NCBI RefSeq assembly: GCF_963921235.1
Contig: NC_086107.1
Span: 106,270,001 to 106,334,000 of the forward strand
Length of the DNA stretch: 64,000 nt
Direction: 5' to 3'
From: Mobula hypostoma
Taxonomy: Eukaryota
Positions 7,501 through 59,847 of the stretch are shown here, one piece after another (position 1 is the stretch's first letter; every line of letters starts with the position of its first letter). The notes under the pieces are model-generated. The model was not told where the DNA came from and searched no databases. It saw nothing but the letters and a program-made list of their open reading frames with translations. Position numbers and translations under genes: made by a program.

Positions 7501-9846
7501 CACAGTCCTGGGAGTGTGTGATTCCCCCCGACATGTTTACACGGGCAGTTCCCAATACAGGTTTGAATATGGACAGAGCAACTCATAAGGAAGAACTCAG
7601 ACTTTCAGATATGTTCATTGTACAGTCAAAAGTCTTCAGAATGAATTTCTTGGGAGAAAGTAATTTTAAGGACTACATTCAGAATAAAGTTCTGTAACAG
7701 TCTTTGTCTGTGGTGTTTTTACATACATGTTAAGTATATACATCTACAAAACATTGTGTGAAAGACTGTGATGACCTCCAGCAATTTGTAACCCGTTCCA
7801 GGAATCCACCTTCCCCCTCGTCCGGCTTCACCTATCATCTGCTGGCATGTATTCCTTCCCCTCCTCCCACTTTCTTATCCTGGCTTCTTCCCCCTTCCTT
7901 TCAGTCTTGATGAAGGGTCTCGGCCCAAAACTCTGACTGCTTATTCCTCTCCATAGACGCTACCTGACGCTGTATCCAGTATTCATTCAGTATTCTTTGT
8001 TTGCTGTAAGCATGGAGGAAGATAAGAGCCGTGTTCAAAAGGGAATTAAATGGGCATTTGAGTGGAATTAATTTGCAGGGCTACTCGGGGTTGGGGAGGG
8101 AAGAAAGAGAATAATTTAGTAGCTGGCACGGTTTAAATGGGCCAAATAGCCTCCTCTGTGCTATTACGGTTCTATGATTCTGCTTTGTTTTTTAACAGTC
8201 TTCTTCAACATACAAATGCCCTGCATTATGTCTGTTACTGGTTGAGAGATTGCCACATGTATCAGTTGTATTCTCTATAATTATTGCGCTCTCTAGTGAA
8301 ACAAGACCCAATGACCTTCCCTTTTGTGGTTCACTTTTCAGTTAAGTGCCTCTCCACTTGATCCCATCCCTCTCCATTTCTTTCCTATAACCTCCATCAT
8401 GGCCCGATGTGGCATCGCCCTGTGAGCTGACGGCCCCCATTCTGCTGGTGTTGGAGAAGGAACTGTCATGCCTGCTGATCAGCACCATGGGCCTGGGTGA
8501 CTCGCCTACTGGGTCTGCGAAGTTCCAGAGCAACTTGACTCATCTACTGCCCGTTATGCTGGCATTTCGAGCAGCAATGAAGGTCCTCCATCTCTGGCGG
8601 GGTTCAGGGCTTCCTTCATCGTGCCAGTAGCTTCCCCTCGGTTTTCATGACTGCCAGTCACACAAGTCCTGAGTGCAGAGTCAGAAATACCGTCGCACTC
8701 AGATGTAAAGGGATTCCTCATTGCTGCTTCCATCACAATTTTGTTTCACCAGTCCGGGTTGTTAGCCCTGAGATGAACCCCAGAACCTGAAGGACCAGTG
8801 GCCCACTCTTGGTCTGTCCTCTACCCTTTGACCTGTTTGACATGGGTGACCCTACCGAGAGCCACAGCATAAAGCCCTGACTCCAGCCACATCGCTCTCT
8901 GGGTCACTGAGGCACGCGAGTCTCCAAACTTTACGACAAGGCGGTGGTCCTCCTGGAAGAAAACAACTCAACCCCAACACTTTATCTCATCCTCGTCAGG
9001 CAGACCAACAAGATCCCACCATCGCAAATGTTTGGGGAGTTTCAGCCAGACATTTACATAAGGGAACTTGCTGTTTTAACCGCGGCATGTTAACATATCT
9101 GACATAATATATAAAATATTTTTTGTATATAATACAGGACTTAACATATATAGATATGCTCTACATAAAACCTGTACAACATTGATTTACAAATTAATGT
9201 GGAAAGACTGCGTGACAGCCTCCTGAAATTTGTGATGATCCATTCCAGGAATCCTAAATGAATGTGGGACAGGTGGCAGAGAAGGAGTGCCAGGAATGGG
9301 GAGTGGCACTGATGCTGGCACACCCAACCGTTAGATATCAGGCAAAGTCATTTGATTCAAAACAATTGGTTTATTGATCATTACAGAATGTCTCTCTGGT
9401 GCTCCCTCTCCCCCTTCCCACTCTCAGTCCACAACAGAGACCCATATCAGAATCAGGTTTATCATCACTCACATATGTCATGAATTTTTTTTGTTGCGGT
9501 AGCAGTACAGGGCAATATATAAAATTACTGCAGTACTGTGCAAAAGTCTTAGGCACCCTAGCCTTTTATATTCGCCTTAGACTTTTACCCAGTTCTGTAC
9601 ATAATAATTGATTTCTGGGAGGGCTACTGTGTTTTACCTTACATGGAGAGTGCTAGATATCCGAAATGTGCTGCCTGAGTGGTTTTGGCGGCAAATACAA
9701 TAACGGTTTTAAAAGATAGACAGTAATGTGTGGAGCATATGCCATAAGACATAAGAGGAGAATTAGACCATTTGACCTATTGAAGTCTGCCTTGCCATAT
9801 CCCAGAGAATGGAGGAATATGGACATTGTGTTGGCAGATGGGATAA

Positions 9847-10744
9847 TACTGGTCAACAACTTTTTTCAAAAGAGTTTTTTTTGTTTATGATAGACTTCTT
9901 GAAGCTGAACACAAATATAATTTCAGACTCACAAAACAGAGGAACTCAGCAGGCCAGGCAGCATCCATGGAAAAGAGCACAGTTGACATTTCAGGCCAAA
10001 ACGTCGACTGTACTCTCTTTCATAGATGCTGTCCGACCTGCTGATCTCCTCCAGCATTCTGAGTGTGTGTGTTGCTCAGGTTTCCAGCATCTGCAGATTT
10101 TCTCTTGTTTATAACTTCAGACTACTTGTATCACGTAAGAATTTGGAGAAGCATGAAATTAACTTCTATTGAATATAATGTGTTTAATTGCATTACAGTG
10201 CTGACGCTTTGCAATAGTTCAACTAAGCCAAAAATGTTTTGTTGATGATTTTCATTTGTACTCGATATCTGAGGCTTTGTGCTTAAGTGTCCAACAATAA
10301 TCGGCCAGCGTTGACGGATTCCAGTTGCCCTGATACCGTTTCTCCATGACCGCAATGTCCTGGTGAAACCTTTCACCATGCTCGTCACTGACAGCACCAA
10401 GATTTGTAGGGGACGAAGTCCAAATGGGAGGCAGAAAATTAATCTTTAGCGACATGGTTTTGTGTGCTTGGAGCATGTTGTCAACCAGCTGCACGTAGTT
10501 TGGTGCTCTGTAGTTGGCAAGAAAAATTTCAACAACATCCTTAAGTGCCTTCCATGCAATTTTCTCCGGTCCCACTAGAAGTTCTTTGCATTTTCTGTCA
10601 TTGATGATTGAAATAACAAATATAGGCAATTTTTTAAACTGGTAAGTGATAGGGAAATTTCATGGTAGTTTTCATGATCGGCAGCCCAAAATCCATAATA
10701 TATACCCAAAAGTATTCAGGAAGCAAAATCTTTGTTGTCCAGTG
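9847..10744 (-). mobile_element. Chapaev3-like (CMC) DNA transposon deletion derivative
   Basis: Transposase C-terminus (AWKA.KDVV..FL.NY...NLGAVSDEHGERFHQDI..MEKRYQG.WN...LADYCW); imperfect TIRs CACTGGACAACAA / TACTGGTCAACAA; interrupted by a hairpin element at 9930-10109. Confidence 0.7.
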
Positions 10745-12670: not shown

Positions 12671-12987
12671 AAATTGTGCAAATTTTTACAAGAATGAACA
12701 CAATTCAAACAGAAAAACTCCCCCGGTTAATCTACAACCCAAAGGCATGAACAATGAATTTCTCAATTTCAGATAACGCTCCCCCTCTGTCCCTTCTCTT
12801 CCTCCTCCTGATATGCCCAGTTCCTCCTACAGCCACCCCACCCCATCACCTGCTTCCTTCACCCACACCATCTGCCCATCACACACATACACTCCTCCCT
12901 CTGGAACTCCCCACCCATCTGCTCGCCCCACCTCCCTCATTTGGTTCCATGGCCCACCTTCTTTCCCTGTCAGATTCCACCATCTGT

Positions 12988-14076
12988 CACTCTGAAGCTG
13001 ACAGCGATGCAGGTGGATGCTTTCCTGGTGTCATGGATTCTTGATTACCTGACTGGCAGACCACAGTACGTGTGCTTGCAACACTGTGTGTCCGACAGAG
13101 TGATCAGCAGCACTGGGGCTCCACAGGGGACTGTCTTGTCTCCCTTCCTCTTCACCATTTACACCTCGGACTTCAACTACTGCACAGAGTCTTGTCATCT
13201 TCAGAAGTTTTCTGATGGCTCTGCCATAGTTGGATGCATCAGCAAGGGAGATGAGGCTGAGTACAGGGCTATGGTAGGAAACTTTGTCACATGGTGTGAG
13301 CAGAATTATCTGCAGCTTGATGTGAAAAAGACTAAGGAGCTGATGGTAGACCTGAGGAGAGCTAAGGTACCAGTGACCCCTGTTTCCATCCAGGGTATCA
13401 GTGTGGACATGGTGGAGGATTACAAATACCCGGGGATACAAATTGATAATAAACTGGACTAGTCAAAGAACACTGAGGCTGTCTACAAGAAGGGTCAGAG
13501 CCATCTCTATTTCACGAGGAGACTGAGGTTCTTTAACATCTGCCGGACGATGCTGAGGAGGTTCTACGAGTCTGCGGTGGCCAGTGCTATCATGTTTGCT
13601 GTTGTGTGCTGGGGCAGCAGGCTGAGGGTAGCAGACACCAACAGAATCAACAAACTCATTCGTAAGGCCAGTGATGTTGTGGGGATGGAACTGGACTCTC
13701 TCACGGTGGTGTCTGAAAAGAGGATGCTGTCCAAGTTGCATGCTATCTTGGGCAATGTCTCCCATCCACTACATAATGTACTGGTTGGGCACAGGAGTAC
13801 ATTCAGCCAGAGACTCATTCCACCGAGATGCAGCACAGAGCGTCATAGGAAGTCATTCCTGCCTGTGGCCATCAAACTTTACAACTCCTCCCTTGGAGGG
13901 TCAGACATCCTGAGCCAATAGGCTGGTCCTGGACTTATTTCCTGGCATAATTTACATATTACTATTTAACTATTTATGGTTTTATTACTACTTAATTATT
14001 TATGGTGCAACTGTAACAAAAACCAATTTCCCCCAGGATCAATAAAGTATGACTATGACTATGACTATGACTACTA
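12988..14076 (+). mobile_element. Rex1-type LINE, RT C-terminal half plus 3' UTR, well preserved
   Basis: GAPQGTVLSPFLFTIYTSD, QKFSDG(D)SAIVG, SFLPVAIKLYN; (TATGAC)n tail. Confidence 0.88.
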
Positions 14077-14714
14077 TGTCTTCCCTCCTCACCTGGATCC
14101 AACTATCACATGTCAGCTCCAACTTCATCCCTTCCACTCACCTTTTTTATCCTGGCTATCTCTGCTTTAGCTTCCAGTCCAGATATAGGGTCCCAGGCTG
14201 AAATGTCAGCTGCCCTTTCCCCCTCTACCGATACCACCTGACCTGCTGAATTCAACCAGCTACTTAAGGCACACAAAATTCCGGAGAAACTCAGCAGGTC
14301 AAGTAGCATCTATAAAGATTTTGGACTGAGAACCTTCATCAATCTTCCTCTCCTAACAGATTTCAACCTCTGCTGCCCTTGGTTGACTCCACCCATCACC
14401 TCCCAACCTCTGAGCTCTTCCCGCCTCCACTTGGATCCAACTAAAACATTCCAGCTCTAATTCCATTCCTTCCTCTCACCTCTTCCTCCTGGATACCTCC
14501 CCTCAAGCTTCCAGTCCTGATGAAGGGTCTTGGCCTGAAACATCAACCCTTTACTCCTCTCAATAGACGCTGCCCGACCTGCTGAGTTCTTCCAGCATTT
14601 TGTGTGTGTGTGTTACTCTGGATTTCCAGCATCTGCAGAATTGTGTGTGTTTATCATCCAGCTGTTTGCTTGGATCTTTTTTTGCTCCAGTGTCCAGCAT
14701 TAGCAGCCTCTTGT

Positions 14715-15552
14715 GGGGTCTACAATTACATCCAATCTATGCAATAACAACCTCTTAATCAATATCAGCCAGACCAAGGAGCCAAGTATTGACTTCAGGA
14801 GGAAAGCGGAGGTCTATGAGCCAGTCCTCCTCAGAGTATCAGAGGTGGAGAGGATCAGTTCTATTTCAGAGGACCTGATCTGGGCCCAGCATATAAGACC
14901 ATTTACAAAGAAAGCACACCAGTATCTCTACCTCCTTAGAAGATTGCGAAGATTTGGCATGATATCTAAAACTTCGACAAACCTCTATAGATGCGTAGTG
15001 GAGAGTATATTGACTGGCTGCATCACAGCCTGGAATGGAAACACCAATGCCCTTGGTCTGACAAAAGGTAGTGGATATGGCCCAATCCATCACGGGTAAA
15101 GCCCTCTCCACCGTTGAGTACATCAACACAAAGCAGTATTGCAGGAAAGCAACATCCATCAGCGGGGACCCCCACCACCCCCAGGTCATGCTCTCTTCTC
15201 ACTGCTGCCATCAGGAAGAAGGTACAAGAGCTTCAGGACTCACAGTACCAGGTTCAGGAACAGTTATTTCCCCTCAACCAACAAACTCTTGAACCAAAGG
15301 TGCTAACTTCACTCACCTGGCTCATTGAAATGTTCCCACAAACTATGGACTCGTTTTCAAGGACTCTTCATCTCATGTTCTCGCTATTTATTGCTTATTT
15401 ATTTGCCCAGTTTGTTGCCTTTTGCACACTGGTGGAATGCCCAGGTTGGTAGGTCTTCCATTGATTCTATTATGTTTATTAATCTATTATGGGTTTACTG
15501 GGTATGCCCGCAAGAAAATGAATCTCAGGGTTATTTATGGTGAACTTTGAAA
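14715..15552 (+). mobile_element. Older Rex/Babar-type LINE fragment (related piece at about 16470-16915)
   Basis: KKAHQYLYLLRRLRRFGM...YRCVVESILTGCITAW motif; TGAACTTTGAA tail. Confidence 0.75.
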
Positions 15553-18500
15553 AGCACAGGTTATTCCATCCAACTAATCCCAGGCTGCTCTCCCCCCACT
15601 CCACCACTCGTTCATATTTTTATTGTGTACTTGTGGAGAATGAGGTTTAGAGAGGAAAACAGATGACCAGCCATGGAGCTGATTGAGGGCTGGTCCCACC
15701 TAGCTCCCATGAGAACAATTCCTACTTCCACGGTGCCACAGCAGTGTAGGGGTTAGCGTAACGTGATTATAGCGCCAGAGAGCCCAGCTCAGTTCCACTG
15801 CCTAAGGAGTTTGTATGTTCTCCCCGTACCGGCGTGGGTCCCCCTCACATCCCAAAGACCTGCTGTCTAGGGTTAGGGAGTTGGTGCTAGGAGCGTGGCG
15901 ACACTTGCGGGCTGCCCCCATCCTCGGTCAGTGGCGCTTGTCGATGCAAACGACGCATTTCGTTATGTTTCCACGTACATGTGAAAAATACTGTTTAAAT
16001 CTTTAACCTTTCCTCCAAACCCTGTGTGACACTCATCAAAGTTGCTGGTGAACGCAGCAGGCTAGGCAGCATCTCTAGGAAGAGGTACAGTTGACATTTC
16101 TTCGTCTGACGAAGGGTCTTGACCTGAAATGTCGACTGTATCTCTTCCCAGAGATGCTGCCTGGCCTGCTGTGTTCACCAGCAACTTTGATGTGTGTTGC
16201 TTGAGTTTCCAGCATCTGCAGAATTCCTGTTGTCCTGTGTGACACTGCCACCTCCTGGACGCCGGAGTCAGTGCAACCTTACCGCTTCGAAATCAACCGG
16301 GTGCCCTAATTGACTAACGCCGGTTTGGATTGACCCGTTCCATTTTATTCCAGATTTTATTCGTGTGTAACATCAGAAATCTCTGCTTAACCCATGGCCT
16401 TTTGCGGAGAGGGCTTGCAGATTACCACCACAGCATTAGAGTTCAACTGGAGCTATACAGGTGTCAGAAAAGGGAACACACCCCGGTCATCATAGAGGGA
16501 TCAGAAGTGAAGAGAGTGAGCATTTTCACGTTCTTGGGTGTCAATATGGCCAATGATCTGAGGATCTCTGAGTGATCCAACCTATCGATGCAGAGTTAAA
16601 GAAGGCAAGACAACGACTATATTTCATTAGGCGTTTGAGGAGATTTGGTTTGTCAGCAGAAACATTCGCAAACTTCTGCAGATGTACCGTGGAGAGCATT
16701 CTGACTGACCGCTAATGGGGAGAGGGGAGAGCTACTGCACAGGATCAAAATAAACTGCAGAGAGTTATAAAATTAGTCAGCTCCATCCTGGGCACGCGGT
16801 ACCCAGGCCATCTTCAAGGAGCGATGCCTCAAAAAGGCGTCATTCATCCTTAAGGACCCCCATCACCCAGGACGCGCCCTGTTCTCATTGCTACCATCGG
16901 GAAGGAGGCACAGTCCTGATTTGTGGGCTGTTTTTTTTAGCTGTAGGCGCCTGAAATGCACTGCAGGGGACGCTGTGGAAGTAGATCCAATAGACACATT
17001 GAGAGGCTTTTAGACAGACACGTGAACGAGCGGAGAATGGAGAACTGTAGTCCCTGTGCGTGTAGTTAGGAATAGTTTAGATTGGCATGGAGGTTGGCAC
17101 ATGGGGCGACTGCTTGCATTTTTGTCTGCCACGGCGATTCAAACGCATAAGACAACGCAGTGTTGCAGACTCGGCCCAATACATCGCGGGCACATCCCTC
17201 CCCACCATCGAGGCCCTACTTCACAGCGGGTGACACCAATTCCCAAAGATTGCCACCATCCCGGCCAGGCCATCTTCCCGCAGCTACCATCGGGCAGGAG
17301 GTGAGGTGGAGGAGGCTAAGGTGCAGATGAACCACAGCGGATAGCGCAGTACTGGTCAGGGTTTGTCGAATCCTGCTGGCCAATGCATTGCACATTTCTC
17401 CCTGTAATTGTTCTCCTAAGATCAACAATTTATACAGATGTCTTACACGCTAATCATGAGAGATCCTGAAGATTGGTCTGTTATAGTACTGTCATGACGT
17501 GTTACAGTACAGTACCGTGCCGTGACGTGTTGAGTTAGAAAATAAAATGTAAATTTGTAATTGTATCTTGCTTTATTGCTCTCCAAGGAAATGTGCTATT
17601 TAATATGTAGCCATGTTATTTTTAGGGTGTTTTCTGGAACTAGGGCATAGAGCAAATATTAATCTCAACTGCAACCAGTCTTCAGATCTGAACGTGGGTT
17701 TGTATATTAAATTTTAAATGCAGCTCGGAACAGGAAACATCCAGTTGATTTGAGATGTCCGCATTTGTATGAATGCAATCAACACCCCATCGCGTGTACG
17801 CAGAGACCACAGTAATTAACACTCGTTTTAGGTGCGTTGGTAGGAAGGTAACAAACACTTTATTGATCCCAAGGGGGAAATTCTTTCATTCCTGATCCAG
17901 GCATTCAAAAAAAATTACACGCAACTCAGAAAGAAGCATTATGAGGGCATTGTAACTATAGAAATTGTCCTGTTACCATTGTTCTTTAAAATATAAAAAT
18001 GTGTTGTAATGTTGGGTCGGGGAGTCTCTCTCATGCCTCCAAAAGTTACCAGCATGTGGGTGCCCCAAATAAAGACTTTTATAGTTACCAGCTGCATCTC
18101 TCCAGTGATTTTGTTCAGCATTACAACCCTATGTTGGCACTGGAATGTGGGGCGATGGTCGCAGGCTGCCTCCAGCACATCATTAGGTTGTGTAAGCTGT
18201 TATCGCAAATGGCACATTTCACGAACTGTTTCAATGTACTTGCTAAATAAAGGAATCTAAAGAGTTAATTGCTTTCAACCATTCAGTTCTGGAACCAAAC
18301 GGGAAACAACCCCCAGCACTACCGGAGTAGTGCTGTAGTGTATAACACTGGTGTACAGTGAGCAGTGTACAGTGTGGTTTGCTCCTCTGGCGTTCTTTCT
18401 TGTAATTAATTATGTGTAACTTACGGGTTGGGCCTCTGATGCTGCTGGCTGCTGCAAGTTTTTCATTGCACCTGCAGATAACAATAAACTCCACTGCCCC

Positions 18501-18775
18501 TGCGCTGTCCTATTCGAGAGAGTCTAATTATAAACCAGAAAAAAATCTGCAGATGCTGGAAATCCAAGCAACACACAGACAAAAAGCTGGAGGAACTCAG
18601 CAGGCCAGGAAAAGAGTACAGTCAACGTTTCGGGTCCTGCTGAAGGGTCTCGGCGCAAAACGTCGACTGGTTACTTTTCCATAGATGCAGCCTGGCCTGC
18701 TGAGTTCCTCCAGCATGTTGTGCGTGTTGCTAAGAGTCTCCACTCTTCGTACCCTGACTTACAATCTCAAACGTA

Positions 18776-35185: not shown

Positions 35186-35756
35186 CTGGTAGGGAGACGA
35201 GGGACAGCGGTTACAGACGGACAGCCCCAGCCCATTTCCCAAATCCCTCCCCCACCAAATCTCCACCATTCACTTCCTCTCGGGCAGGGACGATTTCGTG
35301 GCAAACACGTGGCACATGTGGGCCAGAGGTCAGGGCCATCTGTGACAGGAAAGAGCTGGTAATGTGCCGAGCTCTAGGAGAATCTTTGGGTCGGGGGTGG
35401 CGAACCGATGGCACATGTGTCAAATAAAGGCAAACAGTAAAAATTTGTTGGCATGCCGCATGCAGTGCTGTCCCTCGATTCATTAAACACCACCCATGAA
35501 AAGAAAGATACATAATGATCATCTTTACTGCCAAATGAAGAACCAAATACACTCCATGAAAAGTTGATAAAACTAGAACTATGAACGATAAAATTAATGA
35601 TGTGTATCGCTCGCAAAACAACCTCATACAAGGCAGATATATTTGTCATTGATAGTGCAGCAGCAAAAACCTCAGAATAATGTGTTTTTTTTCTTTCCTT
35701 GATCTTTTATGAATATGCCTCACCATCATCATATTGTGCTGTGTCTTATGACACTG

Positions 35757-36065: not shown

Positions 36066-36827
36066 CGCACCAAATATGCACATGAATATGCACCTAAGTT
36101 TATAATTTGACATTCACATTTCTTATATAGTAACAATACTACTTAAATATCACAAATACTAAAGTATGCAGCTGGAAATTCAAAGCAACACACACAAAAT
36201 GCTAGAGGAACGTCTTTGGGAGCTGCTGAGTTGCTCTAGCATTTTGTGTGCAATACTTTATTTTTATTGACATACAGCATGAGGCAGGCCCTTGCAATCC
36301 CAGCCTAATCACAGAACAATTCACAATGACTAAAGTACCTACCAACCGGTACATCTTTGGACTGTGGGAGGAAACCGGAGCACCCGGAGGAAACCCATGC
36401 GGTCACGGGGAGAACTCACAAATTCCTTACAGAATCGAACCCAGGTCGCTGGTACCGTAAACCATTGTGCCAACCACTACACTACCCTGCTGCCCCATAG
36501 ATATGGCATTACTTTATCAACTGTCTTTTTAAAAGATTAATATTAATAATTTTTGAACAGATTTTCTAAAATGCCTCATTTATTCCAATTTGTCTTTGTA
36601 ATACTCTTATACTTTTCTGGGAATAATGAAGAGACTAAAATAAGCATCCTTTTTCCTTAAGAAAAGCCCGGAATCAGATTTGTTATCACTGGCATATGTT
36701 GTCGAGTGTGTTGTTTTGCAGCAGCTGTATTTTGCAATACATATTTTTATTACAGTAATAATATATAAAATTTCAATTAAATAAGTAGTGCAAAACAAGA
36801 GGGAAAAAAGGAAAACAGATCTTGAGG

Positions 36828-37032
36828 AATTGTTGCAACACACACAAAAAATGCTGGTGAACGCAGCAGGCCAGGCAGCATCTACAGGAAGAGGTACAGT
36901 CGACGTTTTGGGCCGAGACCCCGCGTCACGTCGACTGTACCTCTTCCTATAGATGGCCGCCTGGCCTGCTGCGTTCACCAGCATTTTTTGTGTGTGTTGC
37001 TTGAGTTTCCAGCATCTGCAGAATTCCTCGTG
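36828..37032 (+). mobile_element. Penelope-derived palindromic short element (family also at about 7780-7990, 9930-10109, 14080-14650, 16034-16233, 18530-18732, 38430-38650, 39535-39815, 47665-47790, 58975-59105, 59720-59847)
   Basis: About 72-bp inverted arms (36835-36906 / 36928-37000); CTTGAGG repeated on both sides; shared TTTCCAGCATCTGCAGA terminal motif. Confidence 0.75.
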
Positions 37033-37369
37033 CTTGAGGTAGTGTTCATGGGTTTACTGTCCATTCAGGAATCTGATGGCAGAGGGGAAGAAGCTGTTCC
37101 TGGAATCGTTGAGTGTGTGCCTTCAGGCTCCTGTAGCTCCTCCCTGATGAGAAGGGGACATGACCTGGGTGATGGGGGTCCTTAATGACAGATGCCTCCT
37201 CTTTTTTGAGGCATTGCCGTTTGAAGCATAATTATTACTACTAATTCACTAATCAATGACGATCACTGGTCAAAATTACCATGGCATGCTAGAGAATGTT
37301 TCGGAAGATTAGTATGGGTGGACGCTCTCAAAAAGGCTCACCCCTCCCAAGCTAGACTGTCACTTAAAG

Positions 37370-38120: not shown

Positions 38121-39575
38121 ACTTAAAGACATGCCAGCTCTGTTCCAACATCCAAAGGCCTACGGTAAAGCTCTGGAGACAATCCCAACCCCAGCAGGGG
38201 TTAACTTATAAGGAGAGGCTGGAATGATTTCCCTGGAGGAATGTTTATAGAAATTGTGAGATACGTGGATAAGGCAGACGTTTGCAACCTTTTCCCCAAG
38301 GCAGACGAGTTGAAAGCTAGAGGACACTGATTTAAGGGGGTTGGGGGTGGGGGGGGAGATTTAAAGTGCCCCTGAAAAGCAAATTTTTCCTGGGAGGGGA
38401 GGAGAATGAAGTAATAGATTTGGGCATACGACCTGACGAAGGGCCTCGGCCCAAAGCACCGACTGCTTATTCCTCTCCACAGATGCTGGGTTCCTCCAGC
38501 ATTTCGTGTGTGTCGCTCTGGTCTTCCAGAACCTGCGGAATCTCGCGTACAAGACTTTGGATCGGGGCAATAAACAATCTGCTGAACTCGGCGGGTCAAC
38601 CAGCAGCTGCAGGGGGAGAGGAACTGTCGGCATTTTGGGCCGGGGCCCTGCGTCTAAAATGAAATATGGATAGGAAAAGTTTAGGAGGGGTGTAGTCTAA
38701 ACACAGGCGAATAGGAAAGGCTCAAATAGGCATCTTACTTGGCATGGAGGGGCCTGTTTCTAGAACACAGAACTGTACAGGCCCTTCGGCCTACCTTTTA
38801 ACCTACTCCAAGATCAATCTAACCCTTCTCTCTCACTTCTTCTTACAGAAACATCTGCATGAATCTTCTTCTTACATCCACATGCTGTTTAAAAATCAAT
38901 AGGTGGTCGGAAATTTAACTTGGTTTAATGTCCGAGTAGAAAGGCAAACCAATTTTATTGGCAGTGATCACTTAATGGAGGAAACACTGACTCACAAATA
39001 TCCTTTAGGAATCTCCTTGCCCAATCTACCCAGTACATGACACTAGCCCTATTATGATTTTCCCAACAGGATGGCCAAATCAAGTGCGGGGGGGCAATAA
39101 TATCCAAAATACATCCCAATCCAACAACAGAAAGTTTCTTCTAATAAAATCTCAATTTCTTGGTACCATTTCTAACCATGAAAGCAAGGAGTTCTGCAGA
39201 TGCTGGAAATCTTGAACAACACGCACAAGATTTTGTGTGTGGCTCAAAAAGACGACACCCATCATTAAGGAACCCCATAACCCAGGTCACACCCTCTTCT
39301 CATTGCTATCATCCGGATGAGGTACAGGAGCCTGAAGACACACACTCAAAGTTTCTTTCCCTCTGCCATCAGATTTCTGAATGGACATTGAACCTATGAA
39401 CACCTCCTCACTATTTTCCCTCATTTTGCACTACGAATTTAACGTTATAATTTACAGTATTATGTTTTGCAATGTACCGCTGTCGCATAACAGATTTCAC
39501 GATATACGCCAGTGATAACAAACCTGACTCTGAAGTGCTGGGTGAACTCAGCAGCCTCTATGGAGAGGAATAAAC

Positions 39576-39612
39576 AGTCGACGTTTGGGGCCGAGACCCT
39601 TCATCAGGACTG
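39576..39612 (-). ncRNA. Minimal hammerhead motif with G12>C substitution, sense to CBX6 in intron 4
   Basis: CAGTC-CTGATGA-A-GGGTCTCGGCCC-CAAA-CG-TC-GACTG; perfect 5-bp stem I; probably inactive. Confidence 0.5.
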
Positions 39613-41402
39613 GAAGGGAAGGCAGCAGAAGCCAGAAGATGGAGAAGGGGAGACGGGGAAGGAGTACCAGCAAATAGCAGACAGGGTAAACCAGCGTCTT
39701 CCCTTTCCCTTCCAGTCCCGATGAAGGGTCTCGACCCGAAACACTGGTATTTGCTGCCCTCTGTAAAGACCGCCTGACCTGCTGATCTCCTCCAGCATTT
39801 TGCATACATTGCTTCTAACCATGATTTCTTCTGTAATCTGTCTCCTAACTGGGCAGCTACGTCAGCTGGGAGTAAACAAGTCAGTGAGGGAGCCAGCAGT
39901 AAAAACACGATAACTTTATCATAGATCTCCATCATCAGTAAATAACACCTTCCCCCTCCCACCCCACCGCCCGGAAAAAAAAAATCAAGCGCTGTCAACC
40001 ATCCCCTATAAAAAGCACCAACGCCCCCAGGCAGCTAGAATAAACATTTGCACAGCCACAATTCCAGCCTTCGCAACGTGTGCAGCCTTGTGAAATCCCT
40101 TTTTTTTACTGAACGAGGGTGGGTGAAGATTAACCACGAGAAGCTGAGGTGGGGATTGCAGGGGGGAGGGGGGTTGTTCAAGAATAGAGAAGGCCCGAGT
40201 TCTCCCCCAGTGAGTAGCGAGTACCACAAGGCATAGGAGAACCAGGCCATTCAGCCCATCGAGTTTGCTCCACCGTTTCTTTGTGGCTGATCCATTTTCC
40301 TCTTCAGCCCCAATCTCCTGCCTTCTCCCCGTATCCCTTCACATCCTGACTAATCCAGAATCTACCAACTTCTGCCTTAAGAATACATAAAGGCTTAGTC
40401 TCCACAGCTGCCTATGGCAACGAATTCCACAGATTCACCACTCTCTGGCTGAAGATTAAATGCCTCATTTCCATTCCAAAAAGAACCCCGCCCCCCCCGC
40501 CCGCCCCATTCTGAGGCTGTGCCCTCTGGTCTTCAGCCCCCCCCCCACCAGAGGAAACGTCCACTCTACCGAGGCCTTTCAGCATTCGATAGGTTTCAAT
40601 GCGGCCACCCCTCGTTCTTCTGAATTCCAGGCACTTCAGTGGAGCAAGGTGTCAGAGGAAAGTGGCGGTGGTGGGCACGATTAGCGTTCCGAGGACGTTT
40701 AGACAAGGAATGGGCTAGTGCAATGCTACGACAGCTCGGGGATGTTCCGGAGTTCAGAGTTCAATCCCAGCGTCCTCTGTAAGGAATCTGTACGTCCTCC
40801 CCATGGAATGTGTGGGATTTTCCACCCGGGCGCTCCAGTTTCCTCCCTCAGTCCGGAGAGGTACTGGGTGGCTTAACTGGTCACTGTAAGTTATCCCGTG
40901 ATTAGGGAGGGTTAAAACGGGGTCGTTGGGCGGTGCAGCTCGAAGGACCGATTGGGCTGACTCCACGCAGTATCTCTGAATTAACTGATTGACTAGATTG
41001 GAACAGTTTAGGGGGACGTGGGCCAAAGGGAGTCAGGTGGACAACTTGGCCGGAATGGACAGGACGGGCCAAAAGGGCCCGGATCTGTACTGTAGGACTC
41101 CGACCGGGAGCTTCCTGACATTGTGGCTCCCAGCCAGCAGGGAGTCCCAACACTGAAGGCAGTCGGGACTCTGGGGGAGGATTCTATTACATCAGAATGG
41201 CTGGAGGAGCGAGCCAGTCACGCAAAGCGTCAGCGCACAGAGCAGTCCCCCCCTCCCCCAGCTGGTCAACTCTCCAGGTCATCCTCGCCTTACTGAAACC
41301 TTCCATCCGCTTTCCCTCGCGGAGTTGCACTGGCCTCCGTGCCAGCTCTGTTAAAGCTCCTCCCGAGCCCCCCTCACTCCATTAACCCTTCACAGACAAC
41401 TC

Positions 41403-42778: not shown

Positions 42779-42789
42779 CTGTCAGAAAT

Positions 42790-46984: not shown

Positions 46985-47470
46985 TCGGAGGGGAGGAGGA
47001 GGGAAGGGGAGGGAAGGAGGGAGTGGAGTGGAGGGGTAAGAAGGGAGTGCAGAGGGGGAGAGAGGTGGGCTGAGAGAGGTGAGAGGGAGGGAGACAGAGT
47101 GAGGGAGAGAGGGTGGGGGAGAGAAAGAGGGAGGGAGAGGGGTGAAAGTGGTGGGAGGGGAGAAAGTGGGGGAGAGGGGAGAAAGTGGAGGAGGGGAGAA
47201 AGTGGGGGGAAGGAGAGAAAGTGGGAGGGAGAAAGTGGGGGGAAGGGGAGAAAGTGGAAGGGGAGAAAATGGGGGAAGGGGAGAAAGTGGGGGGAAGGGG
47301 AGGGAGAGAGAGAGTGGGGGAGAGGGGAGAAAGTGGGGGGAGAGGGAGAAAGTGGGGAGGGGAGAAAGTGGGGGGAAGGGGAGAAAGTGGGGGGAAGGGG
47401 AGGGAGAGAGAGAGTGGGGGGAGAGAGGGAGAAAGTGGGGGAGGGGAGAAAGTGGGGGGGAGAGGGAGAG
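46985..47470 (+). repeat. G-rich minisatellite, unit approximately GGGGAGAAAGTGGGGGGAA
   Basis: Many degenerate tandem copies, almost purely purine. Confidence 0.9.
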
Positions 47471-49698
47471 GATCAAACCCCAGTTTTCAATACTAATAAA
47501 CAGGAGACATGAAGAACATTCTGGAAGATACATGGTCCTTCCTGTTGAGAATATGGAATGAAACAGAAACCACAGGTTGGGAATTTTCCATGAGAAATTC
47601 AAGAAACCAGAACATTACATCAACCCAGTTTTACTGTGGCGAACATGAAATATTCTGCAGATCACAAACAAGAGAAAATCTGCAGATGCTGGAAATCCGA
47701 GCAACACACACAAAATGCTGGAGGAACTCAGCAGGCCAGGCAGCATCTATGGAAAAGAGTAAACAGTCGACGTTTTGGGCTGAGACCCTTTCTGTAGATG
47801 CTGGAGAACCAGAGTTGATCTCTGACGTACTCACATTCCTTGTGCCCCCGTCCCACCCCCCCACCACTGATGTGCCTGTGATAATCTACCCCGAGTACAA
47901 AGACCCAATCAGAATAATCAGTTTAACGTGCGATTGGATAATTCCTTCCAAGACTAGAGGGTACTCCAAAGTGGAACACAGTCAACAAAGAACTCCTTGA
48001 CATCTTGCTGGACTGTGTCATACGGTGAGGTCCGACAGGATTTATTCCTTAGAAGGCTGGAGACTAAAGGATGATCGTATAGAAGTATGTAAAGTCATGA
48101 GGGGTATAGGCAGGGTGAATGTGCTCAGTCCTTTCCCCCGCTGCCCCCCCCCCAGAGTCGGGGTATGAAGAAGCGCGGTACGATAGCGTGGTGGTTAGCT
48201 CCACGTTTCCCAGTCCCGGCAACCCGGGTTCAATTCCCATCCCAGCCTGCAAGGAGTTTGTACGGTCTCCGCGTGACCATGTGGGTTTCCTCCGGGTGCT
48301 CCAGTTTCCTCCCACAGCTCAAAGACCTACCAGTCGGGAGGTTAATTGGTCACTGTAAATTATCCTGTGATTAGGCTGGGGTTAAGTTGGGGGTTGCCGG
48401 GCGGCTGCAGCTCAGAGAACCGCAAGGGTCTACTCCGTGCTGTCTCTCAACAAATGAATAAACAAGCAAACTAGAGGACGAAGGTCTAAGGTAAGAGGGA
48501 AAAGATTTAAGGGACAACTTCCTTTTGCACAAACGAGGGATGAGCTGCCAGAGTGTTTGAGGCAGGGGCAATGAGACAGTTGGACAAGAACAGGGATTGA
48601 AAAGGTTAAGGTCATGGCAAGTGGCACCAGAGTGGACAGGCATCTGGGCTGGCATGGACCAGTTGGGCCGAAGGGCCCGTTTCCACACTGTTTGACCCCA
48701 CAGTCACTGAGGGAGAAGCAAGCAGAAAACCCTAACTCAGAATCCAAAGATCACCGACAAAGGTTAGAATAAGTAAATTCTCTTGCACTACGATCTACAT
48801 AGAGCCACCATTCAATGAAAGTCAATGCAACCAGCAAATGTATAATAGATAGAGATATTTATTTATATATCCAAAAAAAAAAGATACATTGAAGCATAAT
48901 TTGTTGAGGACGATAAGCTCAGAACTCATTCTCACGCACGGTTTGACAGACACAGTACAGTACACACCAAGGAAGCACTGGTTCCTGCTCGGATTATCAA
49001 TGGACATCAAAACCTTAAAAATATGGGACACGTTCTTATGAAAAGGGGCTGGAAATGTTTAAGAGACTTTGAACTCCTCGAAGTGACAAGCATCAGCACG
49101 TAATCAACCCGTAGGAAGCCCAGATACCGAATAAACTTCATACCGCTTTCTGTTTCTATAGTCACCTGACTCAAAAACACGGTCTGTACCAACCATTCCC
49201 TAACCCTCGAATTCCCATCAGTTCCGGCCAGATTCTCCCCTACACTCCAAAGAACAGTCTACAGTGGCCATTTAACCTACTGACCTGCACGTCTTTGGGA
49301 TGAGGGAGGAAACCGGCGCACCTGGGGAAACCCACGCGGTCATAGGGAGAACATGCAAACTCCACCAAGACAGCACCTGAGGTCAGGATCGAACCGGGTT
49401 CGCTGCAGCCGTCAGGCAGCAGTCTCTACTCGCCGTGCCTCTATGCCACACTGCTAACGTAAGCAAGTCCCGGTTGCGGTGGGCTGCACTGATGGGGTCA
49501 GAGGTATCACTAAGTCCCTGTGAAGACGTGGACCAGCAACTTGTCATGCACTGATCCCGCCCACCCTTCTTATCCCCATCCTTCCCCACCATTCCCTCTC
49601 CGGCATCCCCACACCAAGGACAACGAAGTCACACTATACACAGTAGACTGCACATTGAATACCTGTTTCATTTGCTTTAAAAAAAAAACTGCCTTGAA

Positions 49699-52069: not shown

Positions 52070-52582
52070 TCTGATAGGAGAGAAGAGAGAATCATACGAG
52101 AAAGGGAAGGGGGGGACCCACGGAGAGGTGATAGGCAAATGAGAAGAGATAAGGGGGGCAGAGTGGGGAATAGAAGAGGGAAGGGAGAGGATATTCTTTA
52201 CCGGAAGGAGAAATCGATTTTCACGCCATCAGGTTGGAGGCTACCTAGACAGATTGAGGATGGCCTCATCGTGGCACAAGAGGAGGCCATGGGCCGACAG
52301 GTCAGAACGGGAATGGGAACCGGAATTAAAATGTTTGGCCACTGGGAAGTTTTGCTTTTGGCGAATGGAGAGGAGGTGCTCAACGAAGCAGCCCCACAAC
52401 TTACAACGAATCTCACCGATGTAGAGGAGGCCGCATTGGGAGCACCCAACACAACCGACGACCGCAGCAGATTCGCAGATGAGGTGTTGCCTCAGCTGGA
52501 AGAACTGTTTAGGTCCCTGAATGGGAGGAGGAGGTGAATGGGCAGGTGTAGCACTTTGGCCACTTGCAAGGATAAGTGCCAG
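52070..52582 (-). mobile_element. Penelope-like element fragment encoding a degenerate GIY-YIG endonuclease
   Basis: IQGPKQFFQLRQHLICES..V.C..CSQCGLLYIGE.R..L..F.EHL.SI...PVAKHFNS..H, then LGSLQPDG..IDFS and a pyrimidine-rich 3' UTR. Confidence 0.88.
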
Positions 52583-54989
52583 GAAGGAATTAGTGGGGTT
52601 CCATAAACTGGGAGGTTTGAATTCCATAAGACATAGGAGTGGAATTAGATCATTCAATTCACTGACTCCACTCGCTCAAAAAGGCAGAGAGACTGACAGA
52701 GGAGTGGGGTATCTGGAGGTTGGATACAGCTATTCAGAGACAGGGAGGATAGATGAGGGAGTGATAAGAGGGAAAAAATGTTCTCACTGGGAACCAGAAA
52801 ACGCAGATCGAAGAGTTAAAGATAGCAGGGGGAAACAAGATTGGTGTTACTCTGGGGATTACCGTGATCAGAAAGGTGATGTGTGAGGGGGAGTGGGAAA
52901 AAAAAATCAAAGGGGACTATTCCAGTGGAACTAGTACATGCCCAGAAGGCTGAATGACATTCACGTACTTTTACGATCTTTTCTTGGCATCTTGCACATT
53001 TTCCCCAAATTTGGAAACATTCCTTCCTGGTTTAATGCATCAGCTCTCTGGCAGGGCTCCGTTCCCCTTCCCTGGGCCCCAGCAGCCTCATCTGGGTTTG
53101 TCAGAAGAGACAGCCAACTCTCAGAGGCACATCTCCTGAGAAGGGTCAACTGCACCAACCGAGAATAATGTCACTCACTGCAAGCATGTTTTCCACTGAG
53201 TCTTTCACAGCACACGGGCAGGAGTAGCAGCTCTTGGCCAGCTGTGCTTGCTCATGTCTTCAGAGCAGGGTAGTTGCTCAGAATCTGGAGTTACCTTCAG
53301 GCCAGAGAGGGGCAGGGGCACCAGGTTTACGTTTCCTCCCCTGAAGGACATTAAGGAACCCAGTGGATATTTAGGACCACTGGGTAGTTTTCATTATTTT
53401 TAATATTTAGAAATATCACAACCTTGTTGTAGGGTTTAGAGTCTTGCGTGCCTCAATGACCCGGAGAGCGATGTTGGCTGGAGTCAGGGCTTTGTGCTTT
53501 GGCTCTTGGTAGGGTCACCCATGCCAAACAAGTTGTAGGGTAGAAACCAGACTAAGTGGTCCACCAATCCTCTAGGTTCAGGGGTTCAGCTCAGGGCTAA
53601 CTACCCTGGCTGGTTAAAACAAAACTGTTATGGAGACAGCAATGAAGAATCCTTCTATACAGAGATGGAGGACCTTCATTGCTGCCTTAAACGCCAGCGG
53701 CTTAACAGGCAGTGAATAAGGGTTACAATATGGTACAGGATATGCTGGCCCAATGAGTCCGCTCCACCTATGTACCACCAAACAACTTAATCGCTCTTTG
53801 GAACGTGGGATGAAACCAGAGCACCTGGAGGAAACCCAAGTGGTCATGGAGAGAATGTACAAACTCCAGATGACAGCGGGAATTAAACCCGGGTCGCTGG
53901 CACTGGAATAGCGTTACTCTAACCGCTACGGTACAGTGCTGCCCCCAACACCACGCCTTTGCATCAGCTTGTTAATTCCAGGATTGTACAGTTAAATTTA
54001 GATTCCCCAATTGCTGTGACGGGATTTTAACTTGCACATTCAGGTCTGAGAGCCCAGTTTCAGCAGGGCTCCGGGTCAGGGCTACCCAGGAAGGCTTCTG
54101 GGTTACTAATGTTAGGATACAAGTCTACTGTCATGGATGGATCTGGAGGTGGGGGGGGGGGGTGGTCAAGACTCCAGCCTGGAATTTCAGCCAACCCTGT
54201 AGCAAGTCCATGAGCAGGTGCAGTTCCCAACATTGCACTGACCTTCAATTCTCCTCCTTCATAGATCTCTACAGTACAGCCCATGATGCTGTGCTGACCT
54301 TTTAGCCTACTCCAAGATCAATCTGACCTAGTCCTCCATTTTCCCTTCATCCATGTGCCTAAGAGTCTCTTAAATCTACCTACTGTATGTGTCTACCATC
54401 CCTAGCAGTGTGTTCAAATCCAAGAGCAGGGCCGTGAGCAAGAAGTCAAATCCGCCAACTTTGTTCCATGATTATTATTTGCCACGTACAATTCCCATCG
54501 GAATATTCCTCTTTTGGAGTGTCCACTTTGTGTCTGTTTCCATTATTCTCTCGCTGACCCTTCCAGATCATGGTAATAAGACCCTCGATCTTCCCCCAAT
54601 TCCTTTACTTCAATCCGTGTCTCCGGCTGGACGGTGGCAATCCCTAGAAATCTTCCCCCGAAGAAACAAGGATCAAAGGGAATTTGAGATTGCAAAGCTT
54701 CTGAGAGAGTGAACTGGGGGCCATGGGACAGAGTAGTCACAACCTGACTGAATCGCAGAGATGAATTCAGTGGCAGCACGGCCTGCTGTACAGCAAGGTC
54801 CTGTGAATCGCGTCAGGATGACCTGATGAGATGGGGTGTTGGACACAGTGTGGGCGTAGGCCGAAGCACCACAGAAATCCCATGTCCTAGCTCCACCTTC
54901 AACCTAACTTTCTAGTCTTTATCTTTACCCTCCAACACCCAAAATAATTCTGCAAATGATGGGGACCCCAGAGGCACAAGGGTATCGTG

Positions 54990-55838: not shown

Positions 55839-55844
55839 TTTATT
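55839..55844 (-). terminator. Candidate CBX7 polyadenylation signal AATAAA
   Basis: Minus strand GTGTAAATACTTTGTAAATAAAAGG, with upstream TGTA motifs, ~1.9 kb past the CBX7 stop. Confidence 0.6.
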
Positions 55845-57910: not shown

Positions 57911-59810
57911 CTGCAGACGAAATGGAAAAGAGAAAGAGTGGGTAACCCTGTCCGCTGGGCAGAAGGACACCTCACCATTGGTACGTCCTCCTGTAGCACC
58001 ACTCCCACCATCTTCCCTTTCCCAACCACCCTCCATTCCTCATAGATCAACGAGCCCCACTCACCCCAATGACCAGACCTCCCCTGCCCCAGATTTCACA
58101 GTCACAAAGAGATATTGCACCAAAATAGGCCATTCAGCCCATCGAGTCCATGCCAACCACCGTTGAGCCTCTATTAATTCCATTTCATTTTCCTTTCAGT
58201 TTCATTGGCCACTGCTCTCTGTTGTCACTCACCCACAATCTGCCACCCACCCACACACAAGGGCCAATTTACTGTGATCAATTAACACACCCTGCAAGGA
58301 CGACCACACAATTCTGTCACAGGGTTTGAAGGCTTGCGGGCCTCAATGACCCAGACAGCCATGTTGGCTGGAGTCAGGGCTTTGTGCTTTGACTCTTGGT
58401 AGGGTCACCCATGATAAACAGGTCAAAGAGTAGAGGCCAGACTAAGAGTGGTCTACCGGTCCTCTAGGCTCAGGGGCTAACAACCCTGACTGGTCAAAAC
58501 ACAATTGTTACGGAAACAGCAATGATGAATTCTACATCTGAGTCCAACGGTGTGTCCAAGGACAGAGATGGAGGACCTTCATTGCTGCCCTAAATGCTAG
58601 TGACGTAACGGGTAGTAAGTAATTAACCTACCAACCAACTCATCTTTGGGACAGAACATAGAACATTATAGCACAGTCCAGGCCCTTCGGTCCACATTGT
58701 TGTGCTAACCTCTCAACCTAACCCTTCCCTCCGGCATAGCCTGTCCTGGCCCAAAACATTCACTGTTGATTCTCATCCATAAATGCTGTCTGATCTGCTC
58801 TGCTCCTCCGGCACATTCCTCCATTTTCCTATCATCCATGTGCCTGTCTGAGAGTTTCATGTATCTACCTTCACCATCACCCCCCGCAGCCCCCTAAACC
58901 TTACCTCAGACACCGGCCCCTCCTGCTATACTTTATCCCAATCACCTCAGAAATAAGGTGCAGATTTTACTTAATATAATTTCTGGTATCTTCTCCCTTC
59001 CTTTCCAGTCCTGAAGAAGGGTCTTGGCCCAAAACGTTGGCTGTTTATTCATTTCCATAGATGCTGCCTAGTCTGCTGAGTTCCTCCAGCATTTTGCGTG
59101 TGTCACTTTACAAATAAGCTCTCTTGTATTGGCCAGTTCTGCTCTGAGAAAACATCTCTGGCTATGCTTCATCTTGCATGCCTTGGTCACGTCACCTCTC
59201 ATTCTCCTTTCCAAAGCCTAAAGCTCCAGCTCCCTCAACCTTTCCCTGTAAGACGTACTCTCTAATCCAGGCGGCATCCTGGTAAACCTCCTCCTCACCC
59301 TCACCCCAAGGCCACACCACTAACCAGATCTCCCCTACCCCCGATTCCACAGTCATACGGAGATACAGTATAGAACTAGACCCTTCTGTTTACATGGAAA
59401 CCCAGTAGCAGGGTGGACATGCGAACATCCATGCTAACCCGAGGTCAGGATCGAACCCAGGTCTCTGCTGCTATGGGGCAATGCCTACCAGCCGTGCCAC
59501 CCACTCACCCACCCACGTGCTATCTCGGATCCACCCGTTCTCTTCTGATGTGGTCGCACCAGGAATGGGAAAGGGAAGGGCAGCGGGAGATCCACTGGGA
59601 AAAATGGGGGGATTACGCCAAGAACAAACGCGAAAAACTGCAAGAAGGGGCAGGTGAAGTGGTGTCAGGGGGACAAATACCAAAGAAGATGTTCATTGGG
59701 CCAACCGTAGAACCTTAATCACAAAATACTCCGCAGATGCTGGGGTCAAAGCAACACGCACAAGCACGCTGGAGGAACTCAGCAGGTTGGGCAGCATCCG
59801 TGGAAACAAA

Positions 59811-59847
59811 CAGTCAAAGTTTCGGGCCGAGACCCTTCGTCAGGACC
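59811..59847 (-). ncRNA. Minimal type I hammerhead ribozyme motif (best-preserved core), sense to CBX7 in its last intron
   Basis: Minus strand GGTC-CTGACGA-A-GGG(TCTCGG)CCC-GAAA-CT-TT-GACTG; both core boxes intact, but the ACGU palindrome is changed to ACUU. Confidence 0.55.

What the first reader, a model, noticed from the sequence alone, without database searches (positions are those of the whole stretch)
7901..59847. Dispersed family of minimal hammerhead ribozyme motifs in Penelope-derived repeats
Seen: repeated variants of CAGTC-CTGA(T/C)GA-A-GGG-TCTCGG-CCC-GAAA-CG-TC-GACTG at about 7902+, 14512+, 16106+, 18635+, 38432+, 39576-, 39713+, 59006+ and 59811-. The consensus gives both hammerhead core boxes (CUGANGA, GAAA), a GGG/CCC stem II, a CAGUC/GACUG stem I, a GUC cleavage triplet and an ACGU palindrome in place of stem III. 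Established: Penelope-like elements carry minimal type I hammerheads thought to cleave as dimers, and a PLE GIY-YIG relic lies at 52070-52582. Inference: the ancestral element was self-cleaving. Every copy here has at least one lesion, mostly at CpGs.
Basis: partly seen in the sequence, partly recalled or inferred. Interest (0 to 1): 0.8.

Follow-up and report, generated by a model that had tools for sequence, protein, structure and literature searches.

The report
Dead Penelope-element hammerhead ribozyme motifs
The repeated motif is the already-described minimal hammerhead ribozyme motif carried by Penelope-like jumping genes, present here as decayed copies of a family with tens of thousands of members, so the catch is right but ordinary, and whether the intact form would cut RNA is untested.

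Summary
Observation confirmed. All nine listed sites hold decayed copies of one ~38-nt motif, and the window has 20 solid hits to the surrounding repeat.

- **Genome-wide counts:** A variant with C at N7 and U at 11.1 occurs 39,061 times. There are 86,468 copies differing only by CpG-type transitions or the N7 base.
- **Location:** the motif lies in the pseudo-LTR of a Penelope-like element (PLE). In a partial tandem (L105) it recurs every 3,516 nt, about 300 nt after the stop of a 1,043-codon RT/GIY-YIG frame and 53 nt before the next frame.
- **Fit to the known kind:** it shows the published marks of metazoan PLE minimal hammerheads (PMC4209133): both core boxes, an extra base after A9, a short helix I, no helix III, a palindromic ACGU and a GUC site.
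- **State of the window copies:** none passes a min-HHR descriptor.
- **Not shown:** self-cleavage is untested. Rfam models miss the motif. Predicted folding favours a rod that hides the core. I saw no compensatory stem changes.

The kind is known, and this scan had already found it several times in this genome. Low interest.

The parts
7902..7939 (+). Hammerhead-motif relic (C3 to U, G12 to A, indel near the cut site) inside a PLE 3'-end copy at 7901-7975
14175..14212 (+). Weak, heavily decayed motif relic in a PLE tail copy (14174-14265), followed by an inverted tail at 14270-14341
14512..14547 (+). Motif relic with four CpG transitions; both core boxes kept, the ACGU palindrome and helix I broken; PLE tail 14511-14654
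16025..16232 (.). Head-to-head two-armed PLE insertion. The right arm carries a motif relic at 16106-16138(+). The left arm is cut short inside the motif. Arms 72 nt, 92% complementary
18536..18741 (.). Head-to-head two-armed PLE insertion. Motif relic at 18634-18669(+) with A6 to C, a stem II change and G12 to A
36821..37039 (.). Head-to-head two-armed PLE insertion. Motif relic on the minus arm at 36897-36937. Arms 96-98% complementary
38427..38654 (.). Head-to-head pair of decayed PLE tails with motif relics at 38430-38465(+) and 38624-38654(-)
39532..39805 (.). Head-to-head pair with a full motif on both arms: 39575-39612(-), the best copy in the window with a single G12 to C change, and 39713-39742(+). 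About 100 nt lie between the two motifs
47658..47790 (-). PLE tail copy that starts inside the motif, leaving only its 3' two thirds (47764-47790)
9928..10115 (.). Head-to-head PLE insertion whose two arms both begin inside helix II of the motif, so there is no CUGANGA box
59006..59120 (+). PLE tail copy with a motif relic at 59006-59043 (G12 to A, C17 to U and others)
59713..59852 (-). PLE tail copy with a motif relic at 59811-59846. Both core boxes are intact; the ACGUC stretch is changed at two places, including C17
52241..52675 (-). Old relic of a PLE GIY-YIG endonuclease domain. Its 3' UTR is cut off near 52060 by another repeat, so its own motif is gone
   Evidence: no Pfam GIY-YIG match at E <= 0.1

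Best explanation
These are decayed copies of the minimal type I hammerhead motif that sits in the pseudo-LTR of a Penelope-like retrotransposon. In intact elements the motif would cut the multi-unit transcript after GUC, likely only as a dimer or with help from the element's own protein.

**Shown here**
- The motif is part of the element's repeated 3'/5' untranslated region. It lies about 300 nt after the RT/GIY-YIG frame and about 53 nt before the next frame.
- New copies end 70-110 nt downstream of the motif, in two classes that differ by an optional tail of about 40 nt.
- Copies are 5'-truncated at variable points.
- An inverted 5'-truncated partner often lies head to head within one target-site duplication. 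This creates the 200-250 nt hairpin-like units seen in the window.

**Inferred from published work on other PLEs**
- The 3' ends reflect internal initiation of reverse transcription.
- The two-armed units come from priming on both cleaved DNA strands.
- The RNA motif self-cleaves weakly, as a dimer or when protein-assisted.

The window copies themselves are dead passengers.
For: **Presence and non-randomness:**

**Genome counts:** 39,061 of the C7/U11.1 variant. 86,468 under a pattern that allows only CpG-type transitions and either pyrimidine at N7. The reversed-pattern control gave 0 in each search.

**PLE context**
- A GIY-YIG frame lies upstream of the motif in L032 (Pfam GIY-YIG 23.2 bits against a cut-off of 22.6).
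- L105 has the motif at 2483-2515 and 5999-6031 around a 1,043-codon open frame with RVT_1 and GIY-YIG matches.
- 30 of 30 protein-selected loci carry the motif about 300 nt after the frame: 26 by pattern and 4 with other lesions.

**Insertion structure**
- 5' truncation is variable.
- Target-site duplications flank single and two-armed units in L036, L051 and L058.
- Window arms are 89-98% complementary.

**Motif features.** My script version of the published min-HHR descriptor finds 62 hits in 261,982 nt of window plus loci and 0 in the reversed control. All 62 belong to this family.

**Literature**
- PMC4209133 (parts 1-2 read) lists the same features and also describes opposite-strand motif pairs 100-700 bp apart.
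- PMC11167929 (Main text read) reports internal RT initiation, a 30-40 bp tail, cleavage and extension of both DNA strands, and a protein-assisted hammerhead.
- PMC8557442 (passages) describes the adjacent inverted 5'-truncated copy as typical of PLEs.
Against: - No Rfam hammerhead family matches, even on a perfect copy at E <= 10. This is expected for a motif without helix III, but it means no curated model vouches for it.
- The monomer's predicted fold is not a hammerhead (z -0.26).
A dimer in which CUGAYGA pairs with ACGUC is predicted at -31.7 kcal/mol.
- I found no two-sided compensatory change. The three families in hand differ only by one-sided changes: C-G to U-G at the outer helix I pair, and C11.1 to U.
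- The most prolific lineage lacks the G10.1-C11.1 pair that PMC4209133 calls highly conserved.
- Among 66 repeat copies not chosen for their motif, only 1 starts next to the predicted cut site.
- PMC11167929 reports that hammerhead mutants do not affect insertion in vitro, and that no RNA-seq reads end at the site in Anolis.
Confidence: 0.88

Rival explanations
1. The motif descends from a hammerhead, but in this lineage it no longer works as a ribozyme. It is kept as a structured RNA module of the pseudo-LTR, for example a rod-like hairpin near the transcript's 5' end or a protein-binding site, and the element spreads without self-cleavage.
For: - The dominant lineage (39,061 identical copies) has U at 11.1.
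- The predicted minimum-energy fold is a rod that pairs the CUGAYGA box with ACGUC.
- Short copies start 1-11 nt upstream of the motif in 13 of 66 unselected tails, against 1 of 66 at the cut site.
- PMC11167929 (Main text read): hammerhead mutants do not change insertion in vitro.
- PMC8557442 (passages): Naiad PLEs proliferate without canonical hammerheads.
Against: - All 13 core positions are kept in both high-copy variants.
- The GUC site and the ACGU palindrome are kept, and across three families the motif is the longest block without a difference beyond N7 and 11.1. A plain hairpin would not need this.
- Energy models ignore tertiary contacts and protein help.
- Some of the -4 starts are alignment artefacts of family C.
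Confidence: 0.2
2. The copies are non-LTR retrozymes: short non-autonomous tandem repeats, each with a hammerhead, that spread through small circular RNAs.
For: A 2026 preprint (10.64898/2026.07.22.740005; abstract and four passages seen) derives animal retrozymes from PLE pseudo-LTRs and reports them in one cartilaginous fish.
Against: - No tandem array in the window contains the motif.
- Window copies are single or head to head, not head to tail.
- Copies continue upstream into the GIY-YIG frame with variable 5' truncation.
- Contigs of four runs gave no back-joined form. Contigs are a weak test for this.
Confidence: 0.03
3. The hairpin-shaped 200-250 nt units are fold-back DNA transposons (MITEs) or microRNA-type hairpin genes, and the hammerhead likeness is incidental.
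For: - Long inverted arms, 89-98% complementary.
- A sub-threshold Rfam match to a microRNA hairpin model at 39591-39734: 40.6 bits against a gathering score of 78.
Against: - Each arm is a 5'-truncated PLE 3' end with its outer end at the element's normal 3' terminus.
- Junction points differ from unit to unit: L001, L019, L022, L029, L030 and L033, L034, L049, L051, L056, L060. The units therefore arose anew at each insertion and were not copied from a master.
- The same sequence continues into an RT/GIY-YIG frame in longer copies.
Confidence: 0.02

Closest known systems
Minimal hammerheads (min-HHR) in the pseudo-LTRs of metazoan Penelope-like elements (Cervera and De la Pena 2014, PMC4209133)
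   Same: - Type I topology, with CUGANGA and GAAA boxes.
- One unpaired base between A9 and 10.1.
- Helix I of 5 bp.
- No helix III, and palindromic 15.2-16.2 (ACGU with 15.1 and 16.1).
- GUC site.
- Location in the PLE repeat.
- Thousands of mostly solitary copies.
- Opposite-strand pairs about 100 bp apart.
   Different: - Helix II is only 4 bp (GGGU/GCCC, including a G-U) against the 6-8 bp described there.
- The dominant lineage has U at 11.1, not the G10.1-C11.1 pair.
- The motif is nearly invariant across three families, where that paper stresses high variability within a genome.
- The copy number is very large (86,468 near-intact).
Hammerhead of PAc, the Poseidon PLE of Anolis carolinensis (Frangieh et al. 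2024, PMC11167929)
   Same: - The motif lies at the pseudo-LTR/ORF junction.
- Insertions end roughly 100 nt downstream of it, with an optional tail of 30-40 bp.
- There are two-armed insertions, consistent with extension from both DNA strands.
   Different: - In PAc the ORF starts at helix II. Here the long open frame starts 53 nt after the motif.
- Cleavage, protein assistance and reverse-transcription start sites were measured for PAc. Nothing was measured here.
- The linker before GIY-YIG has a CX4CX2C motif (seen by eye). PMC8557442 ties this to the Neptune/Nematis clades rather than Poseidon.
Animal non-LTR retrozymes (Cervera and De la Pena 2020, PMC7229834, seen in a search listing only; Li et al. 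2026 preprint, abstract and passages)
   Same: Type I hammerheads of likely PLE origin in short non-coding repeats.
   Different: Retrozymes are head-to-tail arrays that give circular RNAs. The window copies are solitary or head to head and are plain truncated PLE ends.
Canonical type I hammerheads of Rfam (hammerhead families)
   Same: The same 13-nt core and the same order of helices.
   Different: No helix III and no loop-loop contacts. No Rfam hammerhead model reports the motif at E <= 10, even on a perfect copy.

Membership tests
PLE minimal hammerhead (min-HHR) | CUGANGA and GAAA core boxes at hammerhead spacing | tested here: met
   Both high-copy genome variants keep both boxes. In the window, by my reading, 6 of the 9 reader sites keep CUGANGA and 4 of 9 keep GAAA.
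PLE minimal hammerhead (min-HHR) | One unpaired nucleotide between A9 and 10.1 | tested here: met
   An A follows CUGAYGA before GGGU in all 62 descriptor hits. The feature is listed in PMC4209133.
PLE minimal hammerhead (min-HHR) | G10.1-C11.1 pair closing helix II | tested here: inconclusive
Replaced by G-U, or by an A-U pair in a shifted register, in the dominant variant (39,061 copies).
PLE minimal hammerhead (min-HHR) | No helix III; palindromic 15.2-16.2, so that two copies can form a shared helix III | tested here: met
   GAAA-CG-UC gives the ACGU palindrome in all 62 descriptor hits. The dimer pairing can be drawn without knots, but it is not the predicted minimum.
PLE minimal hammerhead (min-HHR) | Short helix I (4-5 bp) and a cleavable UH site | tested here: met
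   UAGUC/GACUG or CAGUC/GACUG, 5 bp, with a GUC site.
PLE minimal hammerhead (min-HHR) | Compensatory changes in the stems among families | tested here: not met
   Only one-sided changes among the three families sampled. The sample is one closely related group, so this is a weak test.
PLE minimal hammerhead (min-HHR) | Site-specific self-cleavage | not testable with these tools
   Only assembled contigs of runs were on hand, and none is on record as RNA.
Canonical endonuclease-bearing Penelope-like element | [quoted passage not shown] | tested here: met
   L105 2568-5699: a 1,043-codon open frame with RVT_1 at 23.9 bits (cut-off 29.6) and GIY-YIG at 19.7 bits (cut-off 22.6), both under Pfam's cut-off. 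GIY-YIG passes the cut-off in L032.
Canonical endonuclease-bearing Penelope-like element | Partial tandem giving pseudo-LTRs, with the hammerhead inside them | tested here: met
   L105: a truncated upstream copy ending in GIY-YIG, the motif at 2483, the full frame, and the motif again at 5999.
Canonical endonuclease-bearing Penelope-like element | Adjacent inverted 5'-truncated copy and an optional 30-40 bp tail | tested here: met
   Inverted arms in the window and in loci, within one target-site duplication. There are two classes of 3' end, about 40 nt apart.
Rfam hammerhead families | Score at or above the family's gathering threshold | tested here: not met
   No hammerhead match at gathering score or at E <= 10 on the window, or on a perfect copy in L007.
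Non-LTR retrozyme | Head-to-tail arrays of short units, each with a hammerhead | tested here: not met
   None of the 9 rows from Tandem Repeats Finder overlaps a motif.

The most novel reading that the evidence does not exclude
In this lineage the hammerhead motif has been uncoupled from catalysis. The most successful sub-family, about 39,000 identical copies, spread with a weakened 10.1-11.1 pair. The RNA favours a rod that buries the core. Mini-insertions begin at the motif's outer edge, not at its cut site. On this reading the motif serves as the structured 5' end of the element's template RNA, and PLE proliferation does not need self-cleavage.
Probability: 0.2. Interest if true: 0.5.

Novelty: new member of a known kind. 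Interest (0 to 1): 0.2.

Why it matters
It matters little beyond annotation. The finding shows that a tool-free reader can recognise a minimal hammerhead that Rfam models miss. It also adds a very large vertebrate PLE family (86,468 near-intact motifs) to a known class.

The family could be useful material for the open question of what PLE hammerheads are for. Two natural variants, C11.1 and U11.1, both amplified to high copy number. Frames of up to 1,043 codons are still open. So cleavage activity and proliferation could be compared within one genome.

Tried and rejected
- My first core pattern had 14 N between the boxes where the family has 13. Its single hit (44659-44683-) is unrelated and says nothing.
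- **Rfam.** No hammerhead family was reported at gathering score, at E <= 10, or on a perfect copy.
- **Sequencing runs.** No RNA holder is listed. All 24 runs are kept as contigs.
- **Laying contigs.** Contigs of four runs (X1, X5, X9, X11) showed the repeat in all four, at 80% likeness or more. They cannot show RNA starts, ends or strand, and no pile-up of ends was reported.
- **Typed consensus comparison.** I compared real loci by reference instead. The segment identities are biased, because the loci had been chosen for an intact motif.
- **Independent hammerhead lineage.** Searching the genome with the window's old GIY-YIG relic gave no close relatives (best 64% identity). It returned the same families, so no independent lineage was available for a covariation test.
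- **Effect of G-U at 10.1-11.1.** A literature search (passages of PMC544870 and PMC2837043) gave no activity data.
- **Cartilaginous-fish reports.** A search for hammerhead ribozyme + Penelope + shark found only a review, PMC6155905, which uses 'shark' for the shape of the motif.
- **tRNA genes.** None in the window.
- **Not done.** I did not run a pair-count on decayed copies. Shared descent would dominate it.
Full report
**1. The observation**

In RNA terms it reads: helix I strand CAGUC, CUGAUGA, an extra A, GGGU-CUCG-GCCC, GAAA, CG, UC, then GACUG.
- The best copy, 39575-39612(-), differs from the consensus at one base, G12 to C.
- The 33-nt consensus with up to 3 mismatches is found 3 times, against none in 100 shuffles.
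- The 9-mer GAAGGGTCT is found 9 times, against a mean of 0.78.
- An HMM of the surrounding repeat finds 26 hits in the window, 20 of them at E <= 2e-7.
- No window copy passes a script version of the published min-HHR descriptor, even with stems relaxed to 2 bp.
- Many of the changes are CpG transitions. In 14512+ it is 4 of 4; elsewhere, by my reading, about half.

**2. What carries the motif**

The window is G000:C45:106270001-106334000, in a 3.48-Gb genome.

*Copy structure.* Thirty genomic copies with the exact consensus share about 100-145 nt downstream of the motif and then stop. Upstream they are truncated at variable points.

*Coding context.*
- About 300 nt upstream of the motif lies the end of a frame with a GIY-YIG domain (L032; Pfam 23.2 bits against a cut-off of 22.6).
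- A search with that domain returned 150 scored matches out of 176,435 first-look candidates, some inside open frames of up to 1,043 codons.
- One of these, L105, shows the full anatomy. A truncated upstream copy ends in GIY-YIG. The motif follows at 2483-2515. An open frame runs from 2568 to 5699 with RVT_1 and GIY-YIG matches, both under Pfam's cut-off. The motif appears again at 5999-6031. The unit is thus 3,516 nt long, and the motif lies in the repeated part, which is a pseudo-LTR.
- The linker before GIY-YIG holds a CX4CX2C motif. PMC8557442 (passages) ties this to the Neptune and Nematis clades. That assignment is an inference.
- In 30 of 30 loci chosen by protein alone, the motif lies about 300 nt after the frame. 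26 fit a CpG-tolerant pattern and 4 have other lesions.

*The window's own relic.* The GIY-YIG relic at 52241-52675(-) is 62% identical to the young domain. It has lost its 3' end to another repeat.

**3. The hairpin-shaped units**

Many copies in the window are head-to-head pairs: 9928-10115, 16025-16232, 18536-18741, 36821-37039, 38427-38654 and 39532-39805.
- For the four units where the repeat finder reported arms, the arms are 89-98% complementary.
- In genomic loci such pairs lie within one target-site duplication, for example L051. Their inner junctions differ from unit to unit. Each pair is therefore one insertion event and not a copy of a hairpin master.
- This is the known PLE structure. 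PMC8557442 describes an inverted 5'-truncated copy next to the 5' end, and an optional tail of 30-40 bp.
- PMC11167929 (Main text read) shows for an Anolis PLE that the protein cleaves and extends both DNA strands. It also shows that reverse transcription starts inside the RNA, about 111-118 nt into the ORF.
- The two classes of 3' end seen here, about 70 and about 110 nt after the motif, fit that picture. The fit is by analogy; no measurement was made here.

**4. Is it a hammerhead?**

*Features that fit.* The motif has every sequence feature that PMC4209133 (parts 1-2 read) lists for metazoan PLE minimal hammerheads:
- both core boxes;
- an unpaired base between A9 and 10.1;
- a short helix I;
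- no helix III;
- palindromic 15.2-16.2;
- location in the PLE repeat;
- opposite-strand pairs about 100 bp apart.

My descriptor finds 62 hits in 261,982 nt of window plus loci and none in the reversed control. All 62 are from this family.

*Results against or neutral.*
- No Rfam hammerhead family reports the motif, even on a perfect copy. This is expected without helix III.
- The monomer's predicted fold is not a hammerhead (z -0.26).
A dimer in which CUGAYGA pairs with ACGUC is predicted at -31.7 kcal/mol.
- I found no two-sided compensatory change.

*Families compared.* The three families in hand share the motif almost unchanged, while their immediate flanks are hard to align. This suggests constraint on the block. 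The loci of two families had been picked for an intact motif, so the figures are biased.

**5. The genome-wide consensus**

The dominant form has C at N7, which the core allows, and U at 11.1. It has 39,061 exact copies. A pattern that allows only CpG-type transitions and either pyrimidine at N7 finds 86,468.

U at 11.1 turns the G10.1-C11.1 pair into G-U. Alternatively, it lets the extra A pair with it in a shifted register. I found no activity data for this change.

**6. Traces of cleavage**

Only assembled contigs of runs were on hand, none on record as RNA. RNA ends could therefore not be read.

As a proxy I mapped the 5' ends of 66 repeat copies that had not been chosen for their motif:
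- 33 run on upstream;
- 13 start 1-11 nt before the motif;
- 12 start inside it;
- 1 starts next to the cut site;
- 4 start between +44 and +58;
- 3 start beyond the +59 limit of the listing.

Some of the -4 starts are artefacts of aligning family C to a family B model. In this small sample the cut site is not over-used.

**7. Comparison and verdict**

This is a new, very large member of a known kind: the minimal hammerhead of Penelope-like elements. A review states that all available PLE sequences carry such motifs (PMC6155905, passage).

Earlier notes of this scan describe the same family at least eight times on other pieces of this genome. They call the host a cartilaginous fish, which I did not test.

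The claim that the ancestor self-cleaved is plausible by homology but not shown. Interest is low.

Noticed in passing
It has C at N7 and U at 11.1 and occurs 39,061 times exactly, against 1,105. The canonical G10.1-C11.1 pair is therefore missing in the most prolific lineage.
   Followed up: partly
window plus loci (66 unselected repeat copies): The 5' ends of short copies gather 1-11 nt upstream of the motif (13 of 66) and at +5/+6 (4 of 66). Only 1 of 66 lies next to the predicted cut site. Some -4 starts are alignment artefacts.
   Followed up: partly
L105 2568-5699 (G000:C5:53876000-53883500): A 1,043-codon frame of this PLE is still open, and one search lists other copies with open frames of 800 codons or more. 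The family may therefore have been active recently.
   Followed up: partly
window 39591-39734, both strands: Sub-threshold Rfam match to a microRNA hairpin model: mir-3718, 40.6 bits against a gathering score of 78. It only reflects the two inverted PLE arms.
   Followed up: yes
window 34319-35269 (-): Open frame with a CBX-family C-terminal motif (Pfam CBX7_C, E 1.3e-15). This is probably the last coding exon of a chromobox gene, so the repeats lie around a host gene.
   Followed up: no
window 3135-3749 (+), 12812-13918 (+), 14704-15096 (+): Fragments of other retroelements: RVT_1 matches, and matches to the Pfam family ALKBH8_N.
   Followed up: no
window 47055-47469: Purine-rich tandem array with periods of 19, 33, 100 and 185 nt, next to a PLE tail copy at 47658-47790(-). 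Its origin was not examined.
   Followed up: no
L006:1000-1700 laid with runs X1, X5, X9, X11: Contigs of runs labelled as four different organisms hold this repeat at 80% likeness or more: 39 to 8,360 contigs per run. The family is therefore shared by several species.
   Followed up: no
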